Source: Escherichia phage HK6
DNA: 64,000 nucleotides
Sequence record: PP724615.1
Reading direction: 5' to 3' (one strand)
Under the pieces are notes generated by a model that was not told the origin of the DNA, did no database searches, and saw only the letters and a program-made list of their open reading frames with translations. Below, piece by piece: positions 19,235-32,897 of this stretch. How positions within the stretch are numbered: position 1 is the stretch's first letter; each line of letters starts with the position of its first letter. The position numbers and the translations under genes were made by a program.

Positions 19235-19424
19235 TTGTTTCTCCTAAGTTTTCCTGTTCTTCTAAACGTTTGCCTTCATGATCTACTCGAATAACTCCGC
19301 ATCCTTCGCAAATCACAACTGCACCATAACCTTCTTTGACCTCAGCTTCTGTAATCAAACCAGAAAGATCACCAGTATCTCTGCCCCACATATCAATGGA
19401 GCATTGTTTGCAGAAATCAGCCAT
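19227..19424 (-). CDS. Small zinc-ribbon-like protein (65 aa)
   Basis: CKQCS and CEGCG Cys pairs. Confidence 0.4.
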   Translation of the reverse strand: MADFCKQCSIDMWGRDTGDLSGLITEAEVKEGYGAVVICEGCGVIRVDHEGKRLEEQENLGETNE

Positions 19425-19451
19425 ATTTTATTTCCTATTTAAGTTAATTTG

Positions 19452-19528
19452 GGGTGGCTAGTGGAATTCGAATCCACATAGGCCTGATTCACAATCAGGA
19501 TCATTAACCAATTATGATATAGCCACAA
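19452..19528 (-). tRNA. tRNA-His (GTG)
   Basis: Anticodon arm CCTGA-TTGTGAA-TCAGG; T-arm GTGGA-TTCGAAT-TCCAC; acceptor GTGGCTA/TAGCCAC. Confidence 0.75.
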
Positions 19529-19892
19529 TTGAAAACTCGCAGGGTTAGCGAAACCTTCCTCAATTAGCATGTTCTAGAATACTAATCAAGTTATCTCCTA
19601 TTGCACGCAGCTCAAGACGAGTACGAATTTTCAATTGTGGCGGCTCTCAGAAACTCTTCTACTCTAGTCTTAGCAGCTTACTCCCGAACGCATGTCGGGG
19701 AAGTCTTACCAAGAGCATCAAATAGCACCGTTACACTTTGAGCCATAGGTGTATCAAGAAGCAGAAGGACTTGAACCTTCACGAGATAGACCATTTATCT
19801 CAGCCGCTTTATGAGGTATGTTGCTGGGAGTGGATGTTCCCCATAAACCTTTTAGGCAGCCCCGTCTACCGATTCCGGCATACTTCAAGATT

Positions 19893-19986
19893 TGGAGGTA
19901 GGTAAGGGGATCGAACCCTTACACCGTATCACTACGATCAACCGATTTCAAGTCGGAGTCCAGCGCCAGCCGTTGGATTGACCTAC
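19893..19986 (-). tRNA. tRNA-Ser (TGA), long variable arm
   Basis: T-arm AAGGG-TTCGATC-CCCTT; acceptor GGTAGGT/ACCTACC; anticodon loop CTTGAAA. Confidence 0.65.
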
Positions 19987-19998
19987 CGTATAAATTGT

Positions 19999-20093
19999 TT
20001 GGCGGAAAAGATGGGAGTTGAACCCATAAGGCGGTATTGCTACCACTCAACCGATTTCCAATCGGGTTTAGTCACCAGTCTATTTGCTTTTCC
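19999..20093 (-). tRNA. tRNA-Ser (GGA), long variable arm
   Basis: T-arm ATGGG-TTCAACT-CCCAT; acceptor GGAAAAG/CTTTTCC; anticodon loop TTGGAAA; 5' end overlaps the stop of the HNH gene by about 14 nt. Confidence 0.6.
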
Positions 20094-20664
20094 GTTGTTC
20101 TGTTAATACTTTTGGGCTTAATCCGGTTAGTTTAGTATATCGTCTACGTAAAGTGGACTCTGATACTTCTAGATCTTTAGCTGCCTTAACCCACCCCATT
20201 AATAAAACCTTTTCAGTTATGTCTTCTAAGGACAATTCTGGTTTTATTAACTTTCCTGTAGGTTTTGGCTTACAATTTGTACATGTTACTGATCTCTGAA
20301 GCATTAGATTTCCACATAAGGGGCAAGGTACTCTACTATCAGACCATCCATTATCTTTATTAGTTTTCTTCTGATGTTCTATTTTTGACAAAACTTGAAG
20401 ATTATCTTTAGATAGATTCAGCCTATCTCTATCCTTGTGATCTACTTCTAATTCAGGGTCAAATAGATTATATAAGTCCCCAAATACATGAGAAATAATT
20501 CGGTGTATAAGTACCGAAGTTTGCTTACCATTTATCTGTAATTTTACAGCAGGGTATCCATCAACTATATATCTTGATAAAATTTTATTAGTAAATGTAG
20601 ATAACACATCCCCTGTTTCATTTACTAAATACCCTGGTGCATCTTTTATTGGTACAAACTGCAT
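20080..20664 (-). CDS. HNH homing endonuclease (194 aa)
   Basis: N-terminal IKDAPGYLVNETGDV (NUMOD4-like), HNH core VDHKDRDRLNLSKDNLQVLSKIEHQKK, C-terminal HTH-like tail. Confidence 0.75.
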   Translation of the reverse strand: MQFVPIKDAPGYLVNETGDVLSTFTNKILSRYIVDGYPAVKLQINGKQTSVLIHRIISHVFGDLYNLFDPELEVDHKDRDRLNLSKDNLQVLSKIEHQKKTNKDNGWSDSRVPCPLCGNLMLQRSVTCTNCKPKPTGKLIKPELSLEDITEKVLLMGWVKAAKDLEVSESTLRRRYTKLTGLSPKVLTEQRKSK

Positions 20665-20770: not shown

Positions 20771-20844
20771 TGGTGGAGAAAGAGGGAGTTGAACCCTCGT
20801 CTTCTGCGTGCAAAGCAGATGTTCTACCATTAAACTATATCCCC
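20771..20844 (-). tRNA. tRNA-Ala (TGC)
   Basis: T-arm GAGGG-TTCAACT-CCCTC; anticodon arm TCTGC-TTTGCAC-GCAGA. Confidence 0.65.
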
Positions 20845-21129
20845 AAATTCTTTAGTTTACTAAGGCTATTAGCTCGGCGTAACTACAGCACCTTCGCTTC
20901 GAGCGGAAGGAACCGCGTCATCTCGCAAACCCGATACACTATTCAGTTGCCGCTGAATCTAGTGGACTAATCTAGAACTTCTCCCGAATCGTAGGGATCG
21001 TGCTTTTTGGCAGCCAGTCCTAGGTCGAGCTAATACCTTAGTGAACTATGATGAGGATTTCTCCTCATCAATTTATATTGATATTATAACAAGAAATTAA
21101 GCATCAAGCAACTGCATTTTTCTTGAAAT

Positions 21130-21209
21130 TGGTAGATCGCCTGGGACTCGAACCCAGAACCTTCCGATTAAAAGTCGGATGCTACTAAACCTATTGAGCT
21201 AGCGATCTA
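21130..21209 (-). tRNA. tRNA-Lys (TTT)
   Basis: Acceptor AGATCGC/GCGATCT; anticodon arm TCCGA-CTTTTAA-TCGGA; T-arm CTGGG-TTCGAGT-CCCAG. Confidence 0.7.
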
Positions 21210-21397
21210 TTAGTAACCATTATACACTTCTTTAATAGAGTGGACTTTTAAGTAAGGGTGATTAGTACTAAACTCTACCATTACTTCATCCCAATTTTTA
21301 CCGTAATGAGCAAGTAAGGATTTTGATGTATTCTTACCTGAACGTTTGTCACTTACTACTAATCGAAATACTTTCATTTCGAAATCCCCTATTAAAA

Positions 21398-21474
21398 TGG
21401 AAGCGGGTGCAGGAATCGAACCTACCTCTTTCTAGCTTATGAGACTAGTGATCTCTACCAGAGATCTAACCCGC
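21398..21474 (-). tRNA. tRNA with CAT anticodon (Met/fMet/Ile2-type)
   Basis: Anticodon arm CTAGT-CTCATAA-GCTAG; T-loop TTCGATT; acceptor pairing imperfect, ends approximate. Confidence 0.5.
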
Positions 21475-21481
21475 AATTGTT

Positions 21482-21557
21482 TGGTCAGTGCGGCAGGACT
21501 CGAACCTGCGACCCGAAGCATCCAAGGCTCCCACGCTACCAACTGCGCTACGCACTG
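21482..21557 (-). tRNA. tRNA-Pro (TGG)
   Basis: Acceptor CAGTGCG/CGCACTG; anticodon loop CTTGGAT; T-arm GCAGG-TTCGAGT-CCTGC. Confidence 0.75.
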
Positions 21558-21566
21558 TTAATTCTT

Positions 21567-21764
21567 TTATTGTGGAGGAATATTAATAATTCGTCCATCT
21601 ACACAATAAACGGTACTAGGAATCGTACTATATATGTAGAAATTCTTTATATTACTCTCTCCGCCACAGAAATTTTTAGCAAATTCATACTCTTTATTAA
21701 TGGTTGAGTCAAATTTAAAACAACCAGTAAGTAGGAATACAGATAGTAATAAAACTTTCTTCAT
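21567..21764 (-). CDS. Small lipoprotein (65 aa)
   Basis: Signal peptide with lipobox LLTGC; promoter module upstream. Confidence 0.5.
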   Translation of the reverse strand: MKKVLLLSVFLLTGCFKFDSTINKEYEFAKNFCGGESNIKNFYIYSTIPSTVYCVDGRIINIPPQ

Positions 21765-22217
21765 TTAGCTTTCCTTCTCTTCACTTTATAAGATATATTA
21801 TACAGAGAATTAAGCAGAATAGCAAATGAATTTTTAATAAATTTACTTATTGTGTAGGCCACCTGGAGGCTACCAACCCCACGGCTGACAAAGAAGTTTG
21901 CGAGACCTCTCTTAAATGCCAGAATAGACCCGCCGATCTATCGGAACCTACATAATAAGTAAACTTTATAGTGTCATTCTAGACAGGACTCGAACCTGTT
22001 ATCACTTGTGCGGACTTACGAGAACCATTCTTTCACTCGAATCGAACGAGCTTCTGCCCTCGCCAAGCTGGTTTCCCCATCAACCACGCTAGAATGTTTG
22101 ATTATTTTCAGTGCAAGAGTCCGAGTCTTGGACACGACCGCTTCGCAAGTACATAGGCTGCTTATCATGAGTCAGCACTTCCGAATTGCTAGCTCCGTGT
22201 TCTGCACTGAAATTTTG

Positions 22218-22565
22218 TTAATTTAACAGTAAAGTACGATCTACTTCACCATTAATTGTTCGGCATTCTTCTGGGATCTCTGGTGTAGCCTTATATTCCC
22301 ACCATTCAGAACCGTCGTATTCACCACGTTCTAACCAAGTTCCATCAGTAAACCACACGTTACCATAAAGCAATTGCCCACCATAACCAGAATCATATTT
22401 AAAGTCTAGATTATTTAGAAAATCTTCAATATCTTTTTCTGTATAACCTACGGGCAATACCCAAACTTCTTTGTCTCCATAATAACCGAATTCTATCTTA
22501 ATACACTTAACTTCAGAATTAGTATTCTTTAGGGCAAGTAACAACTCTTCTTTAGCATTAATCAT
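22218..22565 (-). CDS. Hypothetical protein (115 aa)
   Basis: ORF track. Confidence 0.5.
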   Translation of the reverse strand: MINAKEELLLALKNTNSEVKCIKIEFGYYGDKEVWVLPVGYTEKDIEDFLNNLDFKYDSGYGGQLLYGNVWFTDGTWLERGEYDGSEWWEYKATPEIPEECRTINGEVDRTLLLN

Positions 22566-22591
22566 AGCATATTTCTCGTGCTAGTTTAGTT

Positions 22592-22667
22592 TGGTACACC
22601 CACTAGGACTTGAACCTAGAACCCCCCGCTTAAGAGGCGGTAGCTCTAACCATTGAGCTATGGATGT
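22592..22667 (-). tRNA. tRNA-Lys (CTT) by eye
   Basis: Acceptor ACATCCA/TGGGTGT; anticodon loop CTCTTAA; T-arm CTAGG-TTCAAGT-CCTAG. Confidence 0.55.
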
Positions 22668-23888: not shown

Positions 23889-23963
23889 TGGTGCACCCTG
23901 TTCGTATCGAACGAACCTCTCAAGCTCTTCAGGCAAGCGCTAATCCATCTCAGCTAAAGGTGC
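23889..23963 (-). tRNA. tRNA-like, possible Phe (GAA), weak anticodon stem
   Basis: Good acceptor (GCACCTT/AGGGTGC) and T-arm (GTTCG-TTCGATA-CGAAC) but the anticodon stem has two mismatches; may be degenerate. Confidence 0.4.
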
Positions 23964-25745: not shown

Positions 25746-25823
25746 TTGGTGGCTCCCCGAGGATTCGAACCTACGTACCTACCGGTTATGAGCCGGGTGC
25801 TCATACCATATGAGCTTGAGAAC
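25746..25823 (-). tRNA. tRNA with CAT anticodon (Met/fMet/Ile2-type)
   Basis: Acceptor GGTTCTC/GGGAGCC; D-arm GCTCA-TATGGTA-TGAGC; anticodon loop CTCATAA; T-loop TTCGAAT. Confidence 0.6.
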
Positions 25824-25829
25824 CAAAAT

Positions 25830-28479: not shown

Positions 28480-29427
28480 TTACTTGTTACGCATATCCAT
28501 AATCATTTGACCATCATAGCCAGTGCCAACTACAGTCTGAGGTACACCACCTTGATACTTCTGAGCACGAATCATTTCAACTTCCAGTTGCTTCCAGCGA
28601 ATCATCTCAGGAGTAATGGTACGTTGCAATGCGGCGTTAGCTTCAGCTTCTTTCTTAGCTGCGTACAGTTTAGCATCTGCGTCACGTTCATTAGCAATAG
28701 CTTGGTTGTTGCGAGCCTCACGATCTGCTTCTGCTTGTTTAACTTTTTGCTGTGCTTCCTGTTCAACGCGAGCGAGTTCAGCTTTCGCAGCATTAACTTG
28801 TTCTTCACGAACTTTGGTATTCTGTACCTGTTCCATGATTACCGGTGGCAAAGTAATATCCTGAAGAAACACCTGCTTAACTGTGTAACCATATGGGCGT
28901 GCATACTCTTCAACTTCCTGTTGAATTGCAGTTTGCAATTGAGCCTGAATTTTAGCATCAAATAAATCTTGTGCTTTAGGTACAGACTTACCAAACTCAC
29001 GAATAGTAGACAGTAATTTTTCAGTTACATATTTGTCTAACGCTTGATCCTGAGTACCTGCGTTAATACGGTTAATCGGTGCCTTAGAACCATCAAACTG
29101 CAACATAACAGTCAAGTCAACAGTGGATTTAAACTTGTCCTGGCTAGGAACCTGAAGTTTATCTAATTTTACAGCAATATCTTTTGTACTAAAAGTATCA
29201 AAAGATGCAAACGGGTTTACAAGATGGAAACCAGGCAATACTGGATTAGGGTCTACTTTACCCAGGAATGTTTGGGTTTTAACCGTACCATCAGAAACAA
29301 TAGTATATGAATTAAAAGCTAGGATTAAACCTGCTAAACCAACTACAGCACCAATACCCCAACGTTTAATAGTACGAATTACTTTCTGCTCAGAAGTCAG
29401 TTCTTTCATATTTTTAGTATTAAACAT
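28480..29427 (-). CDS. SPFH/band-7 (stomatin/prohibitin-like) membrane protein (315 aa)
   Basis: N-terminal TM, SPFH-like core, long Ala/Gln/Glu-rich coiled coil. Confidence 0.7.
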   Translation of the reverse strand: MFNTKNMKELTSEQKVIRTIKRWGIGAVVGLAGLILAFNSYTIVSDGTVKTQTFLGKVDPNPVLPGFHLVNPFASFDTFSTKDIAVKLDKLQVPSQDKFKSTVDLTVMLQFDGSKAPINRINAGTQDQALDKYVTEKLLSTIREFGKSVPKAQDLFDAKIQAQLQTAIQQEVEEYARPYGYTVKQVFLQDITLPPVIMEQVQNTKVREEQVNAAKAELARVEQEAQQKVKQAEADREARNNQAIANERDADAKLYAAKKEAEANAALQRTITPEMIRWKQLEVEMIRAQKYQGGVPQTVVGTGYDGQMIMDMRNK

Positions 29428-29461
29428 ATATTTCCTTTGTTTTAGTTACAGTTAATAAAAT

Positions 29462-29536
29462 TGGCCGAGGTGACAGGATTCGAACCTGCATAAAGGAATT
29501 TAGAAGACTCCTGCCTCTCCCTTAGACTACACCCCG
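29462..29536 (-). tRNA. tRNA-Arg (TCT)
   Basis: Acceptor CGGGGTG/CACCTCG; anticodon arm GGAGT-CTTCTAA-ATTCC; T-arm GCAGG-TTCGAAT-CCTGT. Confidence 0.65.
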
Positions 29537-30040
29537 TTTAAGTATTTTTAAGAACTCTCGTAAAAACTCTTAAAAATACAGACGATACCGGGAGAGTCAT
29601 AAGTCTCACTCATTAAGTATTTCAAGACAAAATACGGTAACGTCTATTATTTTCCAGTTTAAGTCAGGGTGACTTAGTGGTTATGTCCTGCGGTATATTG
29701 AGGACTCGGTTAGGCTTGGGGTCATGACTTCCCGCCTTTTGCTGCTACTCAACAGGAATTATCGCGAATTACCTGTGCTATTGTGCACCATTAGTGACAT
29801 CTCTCATGTCAGCATTTCCCACTTTGTGGATAGCTTGAAAAACTACTCCGATATGGAGAAAGAACTTCACTATCCTAGAATACCTTCTAAAGTTCTTCTT
29901 TAGCCTGGACATAGTTAAATCGTAATAAAACTATTCAGCAGACTGGTTGGTTAGTCTGGAACCAACTACCGCGTGGTTTAGGCAGTGCGCAACTAACCTC
30001 GGAAGCTTTTACGTTAAAAGCACCAGTTATCCAGTTCTTA

Positions 30041-30112
30041 CCGACCGTAGGATTCGAACCTACATCTTCCACCAGTTACGGCTTGATAATACCAATTATA
30101 ATAGGACGGCAG
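30041..30112 (-). ncRNA. tRNA-like element without a clean anticodon stem
   Basis: Canonical T-arm GTAGG-TTCGAAT-CCTAC and partial acceptor pairing; no 5+7+5 anticodon arm found. Confidence 0.3.
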
Positions 30113-30370
30113 TGTTACTACATAAGTGATTTCCATACCCCACTATTTATAAATTAGAGAAGAGTTTAGGGGAGAGGTTTCAGACGCCTCATTTTACACG
30201 TTCTAGCCACTAACCGGGATTGCCGCCCCCTGTGTACTAGTTTTACAACTAACCCACCGACTCTATTCAATGCGCTCCGGTTGGGATTCTGCATTCAGCG
30301 TAATCGGCTCGCTGTTCCCTAATTTATGAATATATTATACATAATTTATAAGCATTTAGCAAATGAATTT

Positions 30371-30805
30371 TTAGAAAAATTCACTAGCAATCAAAGCAGT
30401 TGTTTTACCGTCATAACGTCCAGGAAACTCTGCCTTAATAGTTTTCATTAATAGAGCTTTGGTAATACCTGGGTTTAATTTAACCAGTTCTGCAAAATAC
30501 TCACGAATTTCAGTTTCAGTCAGTTGACTTGGCTGATACTCTTGCAGCATGGAATAAAGCAGTTGCTCATAGTCTACATCAGTAGGAACTTTCGTACCAA
30601 CTTTAATAGCGCGCTGTTTTGCATTTTCTAGAGCCTTAATCTGAGCTTTCAGATAGGCTACGAACTCGGTTCGAGTAACAATGTCTTTATCAATACGTTG
30701 CAGATCACCAATCATGGTCTGAAGATTAAGTGCCCGCTCTTTATCACCGTGAGTACGTGCTAGACTAAGCAGTCCACGAAGGGTCATTAGGATATTTTCA
30801 CCCAT
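30371..30805 (-). CDS. Hypothetical protein (144 aa)
   Basis: ORF track. Confidence 0.55.
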   Translation of the reverse strand: MGENILMTLRGLLSLARTHGDKERALNLQTMIGDLQRIDKDIVTRTEFVAYLKAQIKALENAKQRAIKVGTKVPTDVDYEQLLYSMLQEYQPSQLTETEIREYFAELVKLNPGITKALLMKTIKAEFPGRYDGKTTALIASEFF

Positions 30806-30808
30806 TAT

Positions 30809-30976
30809 TTCATCCCCAATGCTTGGTTAAAAGATTGTTCTGTCATAACTGCTGAGACTTTGGCGAAATCAAACTTTTTAGGGTTCGTAGTGATTTCAGC
30901 AACGTTAGAAGTTTTAACAGTTTTCGTAGTACGAAAACCGCGAGTGTTAACACCAATAATTACAACTGATTTCATA
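30809..30976 (-). CDS. Small hypothetical protein (55 aa, below track threshold)
   Basis: ATG behind a GAGAGGAAG RBS and a promoter module; read by eye. Confidence 0.35.
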
Positions 30977-31043
30977 TTTCGCTTCCTCTCATTAATTTAT
31001 GAAAGTATTATACAGAAATTTAAGTAATTAAGCAAGTAAATTT

Positions 31044-31511
31044 TTAAGTTTTAGTGACAACAGGTTTATAGAATGTATGTCCCTTAATCTTAGTTGTTTT
31101 CTTAAATTTCTTTGTCCAGTAAGGTTTATCTTTACCACTATGGAAGTATAGTGCTCCATGTGTAGGATCTTGTGGTAAATCAACGTAGTATATCACTCTA
31201 GCTAAATTCTTAGCGGTTTGCCAAGCCTCATCAGTTTTATCAACTTTTGGTCTCTTAGATACCCAAGAGAACTGGTTAGACTGATATACTACTTTACAGT
31301 AGGAATCTGGGAATTTACCGGAGTTTACACGGTTTTTAGTAACATGTGCAATCGCCGTCATTCCCTTTATGCCCTCACCACGACTTTCGAAATAGATATT
31401 TTTAGCAATGCAATCTATTTCTTTTGCATCGTGCGATGCCTGACTACTAAAGCTGAAGGTAAGGGCAGCTACTAAAAGCAAAGCTGCCTTCATTCTTCTT
31501 ACTCCTGCCAA
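31044..31511 (-). CDS. Secreted SleB-like cell wall hydrolase (155 aa)
   Basis: Signal peptide; IAKNIYFESRGEG...TAIAHVTKNRV resembles the SleB/hydrolase_2 family. Confidence 0.7.
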   Translation of the reverse strand: MAGVRRMKAALLLVAALTFSFSSQASHDAKEIDCIAKNIYFESRGEGIKGMTAIAHVTKNRVNSGKFPDSYCKVVYQSNQFSWVSKRPKVDKTDEAWQTAKNLARVIYYVDLPQDPTHGALYFHSGKDKPYWTKKFKKTTKIKGHTFYKPVVTKT

Positions 31512-31816
31512 TCATATTCAACACGATTGGGATTTTCTTTATACCCTAAGTCAAGCAAATCATTACGCATATTTTGCTTAGCTACTGGGTTCGAGGTTAC
31601 TAGTACCACTTTCTTTGGTCTCTGCCCAAATTCTAAGAGTAAACGAAGAATTTGATAACCTTCCATACCATCTACAGCCAAGTCATTATCCATATAAACG
31701 AAATGGCCTGTGGTATCAGTTTTATTCAGAAACTCTACAGCGGCTTCTGGGGTTCGAATGATAATGTCCATTCCGTGAAGATTACGCACATCATCAATCA
31801 AAATATGAAAAGTCAT
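31499..31816 (-). CDS. CheY-like receiver-domain candidate (105 aa)
   Basis: ILIDDV, VYMDNDL and LVTSNP spaced like receiver-domain acidic pocket, phospho-Asp and conserved Thr/Ser; weak. Confidence 0.4.
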   Translation of the reverse strand: MTFHILIDDVRNLHGMDIIIRTPEAAVEFLNKTDTTGHFVYMDNDLAVDGMEGYQILRLLLEFGQRPKKVVLVTSNPVAKQNMRNDLLDLGYKENPNRVEYDWQE

Positions 31817-32258
31817 AATAGCCTCGTTTCATCAATTTAAAAATATATTATACAGATAACTTAGTAAATTAGCAAATACATTTTTAAATTGTGAAACTAG
31901 TAAACCGATAAACAGCCTAGAGGCGCCACAGGCCATATCTTATGAGCCATGTACCTTTGATCTAGGGTTTGAATCATCAACGAATACTTTGCATCTTTTA
32001 GCTTTAAAAGTTTAGAAGTTTGAGTTCTTTAAACTTTTTAGCTTTCATACTTAAATGTTGATCTTTGAAGTTGTGTCGGTAATATCAACGACGCTTTGTT
32101 TTTACGTGTCAGATTAAATGTCTGATGTAATAAACATAATCTCCAATAGATTATACTTTATAGTATGGTCAGCGGTCTTATTTAACCTCGTATTTCAACC
32201 GCTGCTGCGAGGTAAGATGCTTGGGCTTTCGTCTACCGATTTACTAGCTTTTAAATTA

Positions 32259-32897
32259 TTACTCTACTTCAATGAAGGTAGAGGCGTTAGACTCGGACAG
32301 AACAAAGTCAACATTTGTTGCAAAGTCCTGGTATTCCTCGTCATGCTGCTTAATCAGCTTTTCCAGTTCCAGCGGGTCAATCAAGAATGGAGTATTCTTG
32401 AGTTCCAGCAGGTTGAGCTGCATTTTAACTTCATCTTCGGAAGTTTTCTTATCGCGGGTAGCCATGCTATCCTGCAAACGCTCATATTTAGCATCAAACT
32501 GTGCTTTCTGCGTATTAAACTTAACCGTAGCGGCATGGAACTGCTTACGCATGTTAGCCAGCAGTTGAGCTTTAAGTTCCATAGAACGCTTAGCTTCAAT
32601 TGCTTCCGCAACAGTCATCTTACGAGAGCCAATCTCAACGACTGTTTCCGCATTGCTTTTAATCAGAGCAGCTTTGATACGATCACGCTGGGACATCATA
32701 TCCAGGAGAGATTGGAAATCTGCCTTAATACGAGCAGACAGATCGTCTACTTCGATTGCAGCGCCAACTACAACCTTATTTTTATCCTTACCTTCACCAA
32801 CAGCGATCAGAAGCTGTTGTTCAGTAGCTTTACGAATTTTAGCTTCCAGAGATTTGATAGTTGCCAGAGCGCGAGTTTTAGAGATACGAGTAGTCAT
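32259..32897 (-). CDS. Hypothetical helical protein (212 aa)
   Basis: Chosen over the antisense 270-aa ORF by codon style and strand context. Confidence 0.55.
   Translation of the reverse strand: MTTRISKTRALATIKSLEAKIRKATEQQLLIAVGEGKDKNKVVVGAAIEVDDLSARIKADFQSLLDMMSQRDRIKAALIKSNAETVVEIGSRKMTVAEAIEAKRSMELKAQLLANMRKQFHAATVKFNTQKAQFDAKYERLQDSMATRDKKTSEDEVKMQLNLLELKNTPFLIDPLELEKLIKQHDEEYQDFATNVDFVLSESNASTFIEVE

What the first reader, a model, noticed from the sequence alone, without database searches (positions are those of the whole stretch)
19530..19890. ORF-free 360-bp spacer with tRNA-like fragments between tRNA-His and tRNA-Ser
No ORF of 60 aa or more and no clean cloverleaf, yet the segment contains a T-arm-like hairpin (GAAGG-ACTTGAA-CCTTC at about 19764-19780) and other stable hairpins (for example CCCGAACGCATGTCGGGG near 19680-19700). 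It could be a degenerate tRNA, a small RNA or a processing element.
Basis: seen in the sequence. Interest (0 to 1): 0.45.

Follow-up and report, generated by a model that had tools for sequence, protein, structure and literature searches.

The report
Known phage T5 small RNAs
The "empty" 360-bp gap in this T5-like phage's tRNA cluster holds three structured small RNAs already annotated in phage T5 (RNA1, RNAI, RNAIII), one of them a leucine-tRNA look-alike that cannot decode; they are conserved in about 500 phages but nobody knows what they do.

Summary
The interval has no ORF of 60 aa or more, and both named hairpins are at the stated coordinates. It is not a spacer, though. The window is a T5-like phage (Tequintavirus), and the interval matches three misc_RNA genes annotated in the T5 record AY692264, just upstream of tRNA-His:

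- **RNA1**: window 19745-19889, minus strand
- **RNAI**: 19638-19744
- **RNAIII**: 19528-19633

RNA1 is a full tRNA-Leu-type cloverleaf whose 7-nt anticodon loop is replaced by a ~48-nt irregular hairpin. That hairpin ends in an invariant 8-nt loop, ACAUCCAC. Across 25 distinct homologues, 93% of pair cells are paired and 14 pairs show compensatory changes. The "anticodon" position is not conserved and no CCA is encoded, so RNA1 is a non-decoding tRNA mimic. It is neither a decaying pseudogene nor an intron-bearing tRNA.

RNAI is a rod-like RNA with a 5-bp acceptor-type stem and an encoded G-CCA 3' end. RNAIII is a covarying 14-bp helix that abuts tRNA-His, with a hypervariable tip of 33-138 nt.

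All three most likely come from the tRNA operon transcript and are released by tRNA-processing nucleases (inferred). Their function is unknown. A viable T5 deletion mutant lacks them. A tRNA-shaped decoy or counter-defence role is my preferred but unproven guess. Their existence is already known.

The parts
19893..19987 (-). tRNA-Ser(UGA) with encoded U73-CCA; the true upstream neighbour of the 'spacer'
   Evidence: Rfam E-value scan, 38.3 bits, anticodon loop CUUGAAA. Annotated as tRNA-Ser (TCA codon) in HildyBeyeler and as tRNAS1 in T5. Missed by default ARAGORN.
19745..19889 (-). RNA1: tRNA-Leu-derived, non-decoding tRNA mimic (orthologue of T5 rna1, 144 nt). The tRNA-like core is 19756-19887.
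   Evidence: 87% identical to T5 rna1. ARAGORN -i draws a cloverleaf. Covariation on alignment A2. Model R1 built from it scores the window's two tRNA-Leu genes as best non-self hits, 36.8 and 30.6 bits.
19754..19890 (-). RNA1 terminal (acceptor-type) helix: 19890-19881 pairs with 19763-19754. It has 7 acceptor pairs (1-72 is U.U), a further U.U, then 2 more pairs. Position 73 is U and there is no CCA.
   Evidence: helix 1: 5 of 10 pairs have compensatory changes (e.g. pair 7-133 is AU:15 GC:6 UG:4; pair 9-131 is GC:16 AU:5 CG:4).
19862..19878 (-). RNA1 D arm of tRNA-Leu type (CCGG-AAUCGGUAG-ACGG; 3 bp plus G13.A22; G18 G19 invariant)
   Evidence: Invariant columns. The stretch UAUGCCGGAAUCGGUAGAC matches the window's own tRNA-Leu(UAG) at 17 of 19 bases (my count from the alignment printed).
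19803..19860 (-). RNA1 extended anticodon arm: 5-bp anticodon stem (19860-19856 with 19807-19803), A-rich internal loop, 4-bp extension helix (19850-19847 with 19817-19814), apical hairpin
   Evidence: helices 3-5: compensatory changes in 3 of 5, 2 of 4 and 3 of 6 pairs.
19824..19843 (-). RNA1 apical hairpin with an invariant 8-nt loop ACAUCCAC (19837-19830), closed by invariant GA/UC pairs
   Evidence: Loop columns 55-62 are invariant in 25 distinct sequences from 5 phage lineages. The lower stem pairs covary: pair 50-67 is GC:8 AU:7 UA:6; pair 51-66 is GC:10 AU:8 CG:4.
19783..19801 (-). RNA1 long variable arm (GAGAUA-AAUGGUC-UAUCUC), a class II tRNA feature
   Evidence: helix 6: 100% paired; pair 94-106 is AU:21 UA:3 CG:1.
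19764..19780 (-).
   Evidence: helix 7: 100% paired and nearly invariant. The T-loop UUCAAGU is the tRNA-Leu type (my recollection of E. coli tRNA-Leu, used).
19638..19744 (-). RNAI: 107-nt rod-like RNA with a 5-bp acceptor-type stem GGCUC/GAGCC, discriminator G and an encoded CCA 3' end (orthologue of T5 rnaI).
   Evidence: 91.6% identical to T5 rnaI. Two interior versions (107 and 100 nt) share invariant ends. Consensus rod fold with 6 compensatory pairs.
19528..19633 (-). RNAIII (orthologue of T5 rnaIII, 106 nt); the full slot between the RNAI CCA and tRNA-His is 19527-19637
   Evidence: 99.1% identical to T5 rnaIII. Folding z-score -3.18.
19527..19636 (-). RNAIII closing helix: 19636-19623 pairs with 19540-19527. 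It is 14 bp and ends on the base before tRNA-His G1.
   Evidence: Six versions with interiors of 33-138 nt keep the helix: 97.6% paired, 9 of 14 pairs compensatory.
19450..19526 (-). tRNA-His(GUG), downstream neighbour, with encoded C73-CCA; the base at -1 (19527) is U
21047..21130 (-). Orthologue of T5 promoter P13b, the nearest annotated promoter upstream of the unit RNA2H, tRNA-Ala, tRNA-Leu, HNH ORF, tRNA-Ser x2, RNA1, RNAI, RNAIII, tRNA-His
   Evidence: T5 annotation; 90% match in the window. No room for a promoter between tRNA-Ser(UGA) CCA and RNA1 (3 nt).

Best explanation
The interval is the window's copy of the phage T5 locus rna1-rnaI-rnaIII. It encodes three structured non-coding RNAs on the minus strand, inside a tRNA operon.

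**RNA1** arose from a class II tRNA-Leu gene. It keeps the acceptor-type helix, the Leu-type D arm, the long variable arm, the T arm and the bases that build the L-shape. Its anticodon loop has been replaced by a covarying ~48-nt irregular hairpin that presents an invariant 8-nt loop (ACAUCCAC). It has no conserved anticodon, a U at position 73 and no CCA. It therefore cannot decode and is very unlikely to be charged. It is a tRNA-shaped RNA, not a tRNA.

**RNAI** is a rod closed by a 5-bp acceptor-type stem with a G-CCA tail.

**RNAIII** is a long helix butted against the 5' end of tRNA-His, with a freely varying tip.

**Biogenesis (inferred, not shown).** The RNAs are transcribed with the flanking tRNAs from a P13b-type promoter. 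RNase P cutting at RNAI G1 and at tRNA-His would set the 3' ends of RNA1 and RNAIII. RNase E and exonucleases, possibly with RNase III on the RNAIII helix, would make the other ends.

**Function (inferred, low confidence, about 0.3).** RNA1, and perhaps the CCA-tailed RNAI, may act in trans as tRNA mimics that occupy or titrate a tRNA-binding host or phage protein. The T5 tRNA region is rich in counter-defence genes, so a counter-defence role is the leading guess. The conserved part of RNAIII (the helix) more likely works in cis on tRNA-His maturation.

The confidence figure below covers identity, structure and non-decoding status. It does not cover function.
For: **Identity**
- The window is 99% identical to a Tequintavirus over this region.
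- AY692264 annotates RNA1, RNAI and RNAIII in the same order next to tRNA-His.
- They map to the window at 87%, 91.6% and 99.1% identity.

**RNA1 structure**
- MFE fold and ARAGORN -i both give a cloverleaf plus extended anticodon arm.
- 39 pairs, 93% paired, 14 compensatory, 0/500 shuffles. RNAalifold independently recovers the same helices apart from the D arm.

**Leu origin**
- Model R1 ranks the window's tRNA-Leu(UAG) and tRNA-Leu(UAA) first among non-self hits (36.8 and 30.6 bits; next best is tRNA-Pro at 19.9).
- The D-arm region matches tRNA-Leu(UAG) at 17 of 19 bases (my count).

**Non-decoding**
- Bases at positions 34-36 are AAA in the window, AAU (with G33) in T5 and AAC in DU_PP_V.
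- No Rfam tRNA hit even at E = 10.
- Neighbouring tRNAs encode CCA; RNA1 does not.

**Selection**
- RNA1 is found in 492-499 phage records across Tequintavirus, Epseptimavirus, Sugarlandvirus, Pectobacterium phage DU_PP_V and Yersinia phage phiR2-01.
- Sugarlandvirus keeps only RNA1.
- ORFs across RNA1 are broken in relatives.

**RNAI and RNAIII**.

**Co-transcription**: only 3 nt separate tRNA-Ser CCA from RNA1. RNA1 abuts RNAI, and RNAIII abuts tRNA-His. A P13b orthologue lies upstream.

**Context**: the T5 tRNA region carries tRNA-Lys (anti-PARIS), tRNA-Tyr and Rad (anti-retron) (PMC11464382; bioRxiv 10.1101/2023.03.15.532788).
Against: - No expression or end-mapping data were available to me. 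I could not read the 1980s papers behind the T5 annotation. The Arabic-numbered 'rna1' may be a sequence-based prediction rather than an observed RNA.
- Function is untested. T5 mutant 123 (deletion 29191-32442) removes the AY692264 coordinates of all three RNAs (30287-30647) and is viable. Cloned fragments of that deletion other than the one carrying tRNA-Lys did not rescue infection of PARIS+ cells.
- The RNA1 sequences are closely related (effective sequence number 1.02). Many compensatory 'cells' therefore reflect a few events. Several pairs differ only in the Sugarlandvirus lineage.
- The D arm shows no covariation, and RNAalifold prefers a different local pairing there.
- Folding energies of RNA1 and RNAI are no better than shuffles.
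- No target for the invariant loop was found.
Confidence: 0.8

Rival explanations
1. RNA1 is a genuine, functional tRNA gene interrupted by a 41-nt intron. The intron is removed to give a decoding tRNA, as software and one GenBank record call it: tRNA-Phe(AAA).
For: ARAGORN with introns allowed reports tRNA-Phe(aaa) with intron (37,41) at 19756-19887. Phage JLBYU43 annotates the orthologue as tRNA-Phe(aaa), 135 nt. The cloverleaf is complete and its tertiary-core bases are conserved.
Against: - The would-be anticodon differs between orthologues (AAA, AAU, AAC), and U33 is G in T5.
- The body is class II and Leu-like, not Phe-like.
- 41 nt is far too short for a self-splicing group I or II intron, and Rfam finds no intron family.
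- As far as I know, E. coli has no tRNA splicing endonuclease.
- The 'intron' carries the most conserved sequence and its own covarying helices. That pattern is the opposite of what is expected for a spliced-out spacer.
- No CCA, and U at position 73.
- The window already has a normal tRNA-Phe(GAA) at 23889-23963.
Confidence: 0.04
2. The interval is a decaying remnant: a pseudo-tRNA plus junk spacer, carried along between functional tRNA genes with no function of its own.
For: The region is dispensable in the laboratory (T5 deletion mutant 123). RNAIII interiors and the RNAI interior are swapped or resized between phages. Folding energies of RNA1 and RNAI are unremarkable.
Against: - Compensatory changes maintain every RNA1 helix, the RNAI stem and the RNAIII helix.
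- The 8-nt loop and the tertiary-core bases are invariant across lineages whose acceptor-stem sequence has been entirely replaced.
- RNA1 is retained in Sugarlandvirus at a different position in the cluster, after the neighbouring RNAs were lost.
- About 500 genomes keep it.
Confidence: 0.05
3. All three units are purely cis-acting processing scaffolds. Their helices exist only to position RNase P, RNase E or RNase III so that the flanking tRNAs (Ser, His) mature correctly. The excised pieces are by-products.
For: - Each unit directly abuts a tRNA or another unit.
- In the RNAIII slot only the 14-bp helix next to tRNA-His is conserved, and one phage has nothing but a 33-nt hairpin there.
- The ends annotated for T5 RNAIII leave a 2-nt 3' overhang on that helix, as an RNase III cut would (my reading of coordinates).
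- RNase III has been implicated in T4 tRNA synthesis (McClain 1979, seen in the reference list of PMC4810235).
Against: - A processing scaffold does not need an invariant 8-nt apical loop, a full L-shape core, or the invariant internal-loop sequences of RNAI.
- Sugarlandvirus keeps RNA1 without tRNA-Ser or tRNA-His beside it.
- Most tRNAs in the same cluster mature without such elements.
Confidence: 0.15
4. The interval encodes small proteins, as several GenBank records annotate ('hypothetical protein' CDSs of 29-55 codons on either strand).
For: CDS features overlie the region in phages MM-1, K7_rec14, JLBYU43 and others. The window has ORFs of 55, 46, 44 and 38 aa.
Against: In the two frames that span RNA1, many of the 25 homologues carry in-frame stops, and T5-type and DU_PP_V sequences carry a 1-nt indel that shifts the frame. 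Substitutions follow base-pairing rather than codon position. The ORFs in RNAI and RNAIII were not tested this way.
Confidence: 0.02

Closest known systems
[quoted passage not shown] 1982, cited in PMC8084836)
   Same: Same order, strand and neighbours (tRNA-Ser, then the three RNAs, then tRNA-His). Identities are 87%, 91.6% and 99.1%. Lengths are 145/144, 107/107 and 106/106 nt.
   Different: T5 has a 174-bp ORF (T5p061) between tRNA-Ser(UGA) and RNA1 that the window lacks. RNA1 differs by compensated changes in the acceptor, anticodon and apical stems and by a 1-nt indel.
Phage T4 species 1 and species 2 RNAs (rnaC, rnaD)
   Same: Two stable small RNAs (139 and 119 nt) sit at the end of the T4 tRNA cluster, directly abutting a tRNA. 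From the sequence, rnaC carries a canonical T arm and rnaD ends in ACCA. Their roles are also unknown (PMC3014915; PMC9697503).
   Different: No detectable homology: the RNA1 covariance model gives no hit on the T4 locus at E up to 10. By eye, rnaC lacks a Leu-type D arm and the ACAUCCAC hairpin.
Canonical class II tRNA-Leu (Rfam RF00005 tRNA)
   Same: Acceptor helix, 3-bp D stem with G13.A22, G18 G19, 5-bp anticodon stem, long variable arm and T arm with UUCAAGU loop. The window's tRNA-Leu genes are the best non-self hits of the RNA1 model.
   Different: The anticodon loop is replaced by a ~48-nt hairpin. There is no conserved anticodon, a U1.U72 mismatch, U73 instead of A73, and no CCA. It falls below any Rfam tRNA threshold.
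tRNA-like domains of non-decoding RNAs: tmRNA and bacterial Y RNA YrlA (compared from memory)
   Same: The concept is shared: an L-shaped tRNA mimic (acceptor/T arm/D loop) fused to a non-tRNA module where the anticodon arm would be.
   Different: No Rfam hit to tmRNA or YrlA families and no ARAGORN tmRNA call. There is no tag ORF or pseudoknots. As I recall, in YrlA the RNA ends are at the anticodon side and the acceptor is closed. RNA1 is the reverse topology.
Hairpin-type RNase P substrates such as the 4.5S RNA precursor (from memory)
   Same: RNAI is a rod whose terminal stem is followed by a single-stranded NCCA-type tail. That geometry is what RNase P accepts in non-tRNA substrates.
   Different: No sequence or Rfam similarity. 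Cleavage of RNAI by RNase P is inferred, not shown.

Membership tests
Phage T5 RNA1/RNAI/RNAIII locus | Sequence orthology to the annotated T5 misc_RNA genes | tested here: met
   blastn of the three T5 features against the window gives 87.0%, 91.6% and 99.1% identity at 19752-19889, 19638-19744 and 19528-19633. Full alignment.
Phage T5 RNA1/RNAI/RNAIII locus | Synteny: same strand as the tRNAs, between tRNA-Ser(UGA) and tRNA-His, in the order RNA1, RNAI, RNAIII | tested here: met
Phage T5 RNA1/RNAI/RNAIII locus | Accumulation as discrete stable RNAs in infected cells | not testable with these tools
   No expression data were available. The original papers are not in the library.
Canonical tRNA (RF00005) | Cloverleaf with acceptor, D, anticodon and T arms | tested here: met
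   ARAGORN -i drawing; covariation. Met only if a 41-nt insertion in the anticodon loop is allowed.
Canonical tRNA (RF00005) | 7-nt anticodon loop with U33 and an anticodon conserved among orthologues | tested here: not met
   The loop is replaced by a ~48-nt hairpin. Positions 33-36 read U-AAA, G-AAU and U-AAC in different orthologues.
Canonical tRNA (RF00005) | Score at or above the Rfam gathering threshold (29 bits) | tested here: not met
   No tRNA hit on 19745-19889 even at E = 10.
Canonical tRNA (RF00005) | 3' discriminator plus CCA (encoded in the other tRNAs of this cluster); for Leu identity in E. coli, A73 (from memory) | tested here: not met
   The sequence after the acceptor strand is U-GAUAC. 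tRNA-Ser and tRNA-His beside it encode CCA.
Intron-containing tRNA (group I intron in the anticodon loop) | Intron of roughly 200 nt or more with a group I core | tested here: not met
   The insertion is 41 nt. No Intron_gpI hit.
Intron-containing tRNA (enzymatic, bulge-helix-bulge type) | Two 3-nt bulges on opposite strands separated by a 4-bp helix, and a host splicing endonuclease | tested here: inconclusive
   The structure has a 4-bp helix flanked by internal loops of 5x6 and 3x6 nt, not 3-nt bulges. Absence of the enzyme in Enterobacteria is from memory and was not tested.
tmRNA | tRNA-Ala-like domain with CCA plus a tag-peptide reading frame and pseudoknots | tested here: not met
   ARAGORN tmRNA search found none. 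No Rfam tmRNA-clan hit.
T4 rnaC/rnaD | Sequence and structure homology | tested here: not met
   The RNA1 model gives no hit on the T4 tRNA-cluster locus L039. RNAI and RNAIII were not tested against T4.
Protein-coding gene | ORF kept open among relatives | tested here: not met
   Stops and frameshifts in both frames spanning RNA1. The ORFs inside RNAI and RNAIII were not tested.

The most novel reading that the evidence does not exclude
RNA1 is a trans-acting, non-decoding tRNA-Leu mimic. Its L-shaped body would dock into a tRNA-binding site of a host factor, for example a tRNA-targeting defence nuclease or a tRNA-sensing immune protein. Its invariant ACAUCCAC loop would then block or mis-engage that factor. 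That would make it an RNA-only counter-defence element, distinct from the known strategy of supplying cleavage-resistant decoding tRNAs. The CCA-tailed RNAI, and the T-arm-bearing rna2 elsewhere in the cluster, could be further members of such a decoy set.
Probability: 0.18. Interest if true: 0.75.

Novelty: already known. Interest (0 to 1): 0.35.

Why it matters
Phage tRNA clusters are now seen as counter-defence toolkits. T5 tRNA-Lys defeats PARIS and T5-family tRNA-Tyr defeats retron Ec78. The small RNAs embedded in these clusters have been known for about 40 years, in both T5 and T4, yet have no assigned role.

This analysis adds three things to the bare annotation:
- RNA1 is a selectively maintained tRNA-Leu mimic with an invariant loop where the anticodon should be.
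- It is the one element of the trio kept in every lineage examined.
- Annotation pipelines variously ignore it, call it tRNA-Phe(AAA), or lay hypothetical proteins over it.

These points give a concrete, mutable target (the 8-nt loop) for genetics. They also argue for a curated RNA family so that about 500 genomes are annotated consistently. If the RNAs turn out to be mere processing by-products, the finding is ordinary.

Tried and rejected
- **Rfam.** A gathering-threshold scan of the whole window and an E <= 10 scan of 19400-20150 found no family for any of the three RNAs. A further scan of 20840-22600 found none for the other T5 RNAs.
- **tmRNA.** ARAGORN found none.
- **T4 homology.** The RNA1 model does not hit rnaC or rnaD.
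- **Wider homologue search in IMG/VR.** The looser pattern AACATCCACT..GGTTCRA returned 120 mostly random loci. The RNA1 model found only one weak, tRNA-sized hit among the 71 new loci searched (27.3 bits) and no new RNA1. RNA1 therefore appears confined to T5-like phages, within what I could search.
- **Host origin or target of the insertion.**
  - The 58-nt anticodon-arm insertion gave no blastn match in 5,426 E. coli genomes.
  - The complement of the loop (GTGGATGT) occurs 4 times in the window against 1.2 expected, and one of those is RNA1 itself.
  - It does not occur on the sense strand of the E. coli rrnB operon. 16S rRNA contains the same-sense 8-mer ACAUCCAC once, which is within chance.
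- **Promoter and terminator scan.** It gave no more sites than shuffles. The two 'terminators' inside the interval are simply the RNA1 T arm and an RNAIII hairpin.
- **Literature.** Searches for a function or transcriptome evidence for the T5 RNAs found nothing. Glukhov 2018 and Miller 2003 are not held.
- **Other readings rejected.** Intron-bearing tRNA, decaying pseudogene and small-protein readings were rejected for the reasons listed under the rival explanations.
Full report
**What the window is.** The region 19400-20150 is 99.1% identical to Escherichia phage vB_EcoS_I14. It matches more than 600 T5-like phage records (Tequintavirus, Epseptimavirus and relatives). It lies in the phage's tRNA cluster. 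ARAGORN finds 22 tRNA genes, all on the minus strand, and Rfam adds one more.

**Checking the observation.** No ORF of 60 aa or more lies in the interval. The flanking tRNA-His is at 19450-19526. The flanking tRNA-Ser is a tRNA-Ser(UGA) at 19893-19987 that default ARAGORN missed. Rfam's E-value scan shows it, and relatives annotate it. The gap is therefore 19527-19892.

**What is already annotated there.** A blastn search with the gap alone hits 499 phage records. One is the T5 st0 record AY692264. It annotates three misc_RNA genes in this interval: rna1 (144 nt), rnaI (107 nt) and rnaIII (106 nt), the last abutting tRNA-His. Alignment and blastn place them in the window as follows:

| RNA | Window coordinates (minus strand) | Identity to T5 |
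|---|---|---|
| RNA1 | 19745-19889 | 87% |
| RNAI | 19638-19744 | 91.6% |
| RNAIII | 19528-19633 | 99.1% |

The same record annotates three further RNAs (RNA2H, RNAIV, rna2) and promoters P13a and P13b in the cluster. All have orthologues in the window. [quoted passage not shown] 1982), cited in PMC8084836. I could not read the primary papers. I therefore do not know which ends were determined experimentally, or whether rna1 was ever seen as an RNA.

**RNA1 is a tRNA-Leu-shaped RNA without an anticodon loop.**
- *Fold.* On the minus strand the sequence folds, by MFE, into a cloverleaf whose anticodon arm is greatly extended. ARAGORN with introns allowed draws the same cloverleaf at 19756-19887 and calls it "tRNA-Phe(aaa) with a 41-nt intron". 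One GenBank record (JLBYU43) annotates the orthologue that way.
- *Homologues.* I collected 25 distinct RNA1 sequences from Tequintavirus, Epseptimavirus, Klebsiella Sugarlandvirus, Pectobacterium phage DU_PP_V and Yersinia phage phiR2-01.
- *Covariation.* On their alignment, a structure of 39 pairs is 93.0% paired, against 38-51% when partners are slid by 1-3 columns. It has 14 pairs with compensatory changes, and no shuffle out of 500 reaches it. The 39 pairs comprise a 10-pair terminal helix, a 3-bp D stem, a 5-bp anticodon stem, a 4-bp extension helix, a 6-bp apical stem, a 6-bp variable arm and a 5-bp T stem. RNAalifold recovers the same helices apart from the D arm. In the Sugarlandvirus copies the whole acceptor-helix sequence is different, yet it still pairs.
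- *Invariant bases.* These include U8, A14, G18, G19 and the T-loop UUC, the bases that lock a tRNA into its L-shape. They also include the 8-nt apical loop ACAUCCAC with its closing GA/UC pairs.
- *Leu ancestry.* A covariance model built from the alignment scores the window's own tRNA-Leu(UAG) and tRNA-Leu(UAA) as the two best non-self hits (36.8 and 30.6 bits; the next best, tRNA-Pro, scores 19.9). The D-arm region matches tRNA-Leu(UAG) at 17 of 19 bases by my count. The long variable arm and the UUCAAGU T-loop are also Leu-like. RNA1 therefore descends from a class II tRNA-Leu.

**Why RNA1 is not a tRNA and not an intron-bearing tRNA.**
- The triplet that software reads as the anticodon is AAA in the window, AAU (with G at position 33) in T5 and AAC in DU_PP_V.
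- Position 73 is U and no CCA is encoded, although the tRNAs on either side encode CCA.
- Pair 1-72 is U.U in most copies.
- Rfam's tRNA model does not report RNA1 even at E = 10.
- The 41-nt insertion is far too short for a self-splicing intron.
- The insertion is the best-conserved part of the molecule, with covarying helices of its own. That is the opposite of what a discarded intron would show.
- The two extra pairs beyond the acceptor stem (U-A/C-G in most copies, G-C/U.G in Sugarlandvirus) suggest that leader and trailer bases stay in the functional RNA. This fits the 144-nt T5 annotation, but it rests on a single lineage difference.
- The small ORFs that some records place over RNA1 are broken by stops or a 1-nt indel in many homologues.

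**RNAI.** All 29 distinct copies share the ends GGCUCAAAG(U/A)GUAACGGUGC ... GA(A/U)GAGUUUC(U/G)GAGAGCC-G-CCA. The interior comes in two versions: 107 nt (window, T5) and 100 nt (Epseptimavirus-type phages, DU_PP_V). Both fold as a single irregular rod closed by a 5-bp acceptor-type stem. Support is moderate: 89.7% paired against 30-52% when slid, with 6 compensatory pairs. The terminal stem followed by G-CCA is what RNase P and the tRNA 3'-end machinery act on. That is the basis for my inference that RNase P cleavage at RNAI G1 creates both the RNAI 5' end and the RNA1 3' end.

**RNAIII.** The slot between the RNAI CCA and tRNA-His holds 33, 68, 111, 122, 126 or 138 nt in different phages, with largely unrelated interiors. 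In all six versions the first and last 14 bases pair with each other: 97.6% paired, 9 of 14 pairs compensatory. The helix ends on the base before tRNA-His G1. In one phage the slot is just this hairpin. The conserved feature is therefore the helix, which points to a cis role in maturation of tRNA-His. In the T5 annotation the RNAIII ends leave a 2-nt 3' overhang on this helix, the signature of RNase III. I cannot tell whether those ends are experimental.

**Transcription.** Only 3 nt separate tRNA-Ser(UGA) CCA from RNA1, and the units abut one another. A pattern scan finds no promoters or terminators above the shuffle background. The nearest annotated promoter upstream is the P13b orthologue at 21047-21130. 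Co-transcription with the tRNAs is inferred.

**Function.**
- Nothing in the library assigns a role. The analogous T4 RNAs, rnaC and rnaD, sit at the end of the T4 tRNA cluster and are explicitly described as of unknown function.
- T5 mutant 123 carries a deletion (29191-32442) that covers the three genes and is viable. Cloned fragments of that deletion other than the tRNA-Lys fragment did not rescue plating on PARIS+ cells.
- The surrounding region is known to carry counter-defence functions: tRNA-Lys against PARIS; tRNA-Tyr, Rad and others against retrons, described as an "anti-defence island".
- From anatomy and context, my preferred mechanism is that RNA1 is a tRNA mimic that occupies a tRNA-binding protein, with specificity supplied by the invariant loop. 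I put this at roughly 0.3. For a specific counter-defence role I put it at about 0.18.
- I found no target for the loop in the window, in E. coli genomes or in the rrnB operon.

**Comparison and verdict.** The locus is a member of the T5 RNA1/RNAI/RNAIII set by orthology and synteny. It works like, but is not homologous to, T4 rnaC/rnaD. RNA1 is derived from tRNA-Leu but fails the defining tests of a tRNA. It has no Rfam family. Existence is already known. The structural reading, the breadth of conservation (about 500 genomes; RNA1 alone is kept in Sugarlandvirus) and the inconsistent public annotation are modest additions. Interest is moderate to low unless the decoy hypothesis proves true.

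Noticed in passing
window 19893-19987 (-): A tRNA-Ser(UGA) is missed by default ARAGORN but found by Rfam (38.3 bits to the tRNA-Sec model, below its threshold). Relatives annotate it as tRNA-Ser.
   Followed up: yes
window 25750-25824 (-): Rfam reports a tRNA (40.2 bits) that ARAGORN does not list, next to tRNA-Ser(GCU). Its anticodon was not determined.
   Followed up: no
window 20864-21035, 21851-21953, 21972-22096 (-): These are orthologues (97-98%) of three further T5 misc_RNAs: RNA2H, RNAIV and rna2. All are closed by long terminal helices in MFE folds. rna2 has a canonical T arm (ACAGG-UUCGAGU-CCUGU) directly next to an 8-bp closing stem, so it is a second tRNA-like RNA. None has an Rfam match.
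   Followed up: partly
window 19527 (-), the base 5' of tRNA-His G1: The base at position -1 of tRNA-His is U, opposite C73, rather than the encoded G-1 that I recall as typical of enterobacterial tRNA-His. T5's record makes the tRNA 78 nt by including this U. It is also the last base of the RNAIII closing helix.
   Followed up: no
L001 (Salmonella phage bux) and L007 (LVR16A), between RNA1 and RNAI: These Epseptimavirus genomes carry an extra ~120-125-nt non-coding module between RNA1 and RNAI that is absent from the window and from T5. It was not analysed.
   Followed up: no
L005 300-1000 (Klebsiella phage vB_Kpn_K7_rec14): In Sugarlandvirus, RNA1 sits about 250 nt downstream of tRNA-Val, with unannotated non-coding sequence on both sides. 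A GC-rich hairpin (ACCGCUCUUCGGAGCGG) lies downstream. RNAI and RNAIII are absent. Small 'hypothetical protein' CDSs are annotated over RNA1.
   Followed up: partly
window 20080-20093: The 194-aa HNH endonuclease ORF (20080-20664, minus strand) overlaps the 5' end of tRNA-Ser(GGA) by 14 nt. The same arrangement is annotated in T5 (T5p062 and tRNAS2).
   Followed up: no
L146 1653-1660 (E. coli 16S rRNA, about nt 994-1001): 16S rRNA contains the same-sense 8-mer ACAUCCAC as the invariant RNA1 loop. About 0.2 exact matches are expected by chance in that locus, so this is not significant.
   Followed up: partly
window 30033-30114 (-): A weak hit of the RNA1/tRNA-like model (11.6 bits, E 0.27) falls where no tRNA is called. 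It could be a tRNA remnant or noise.
   Followed up: no
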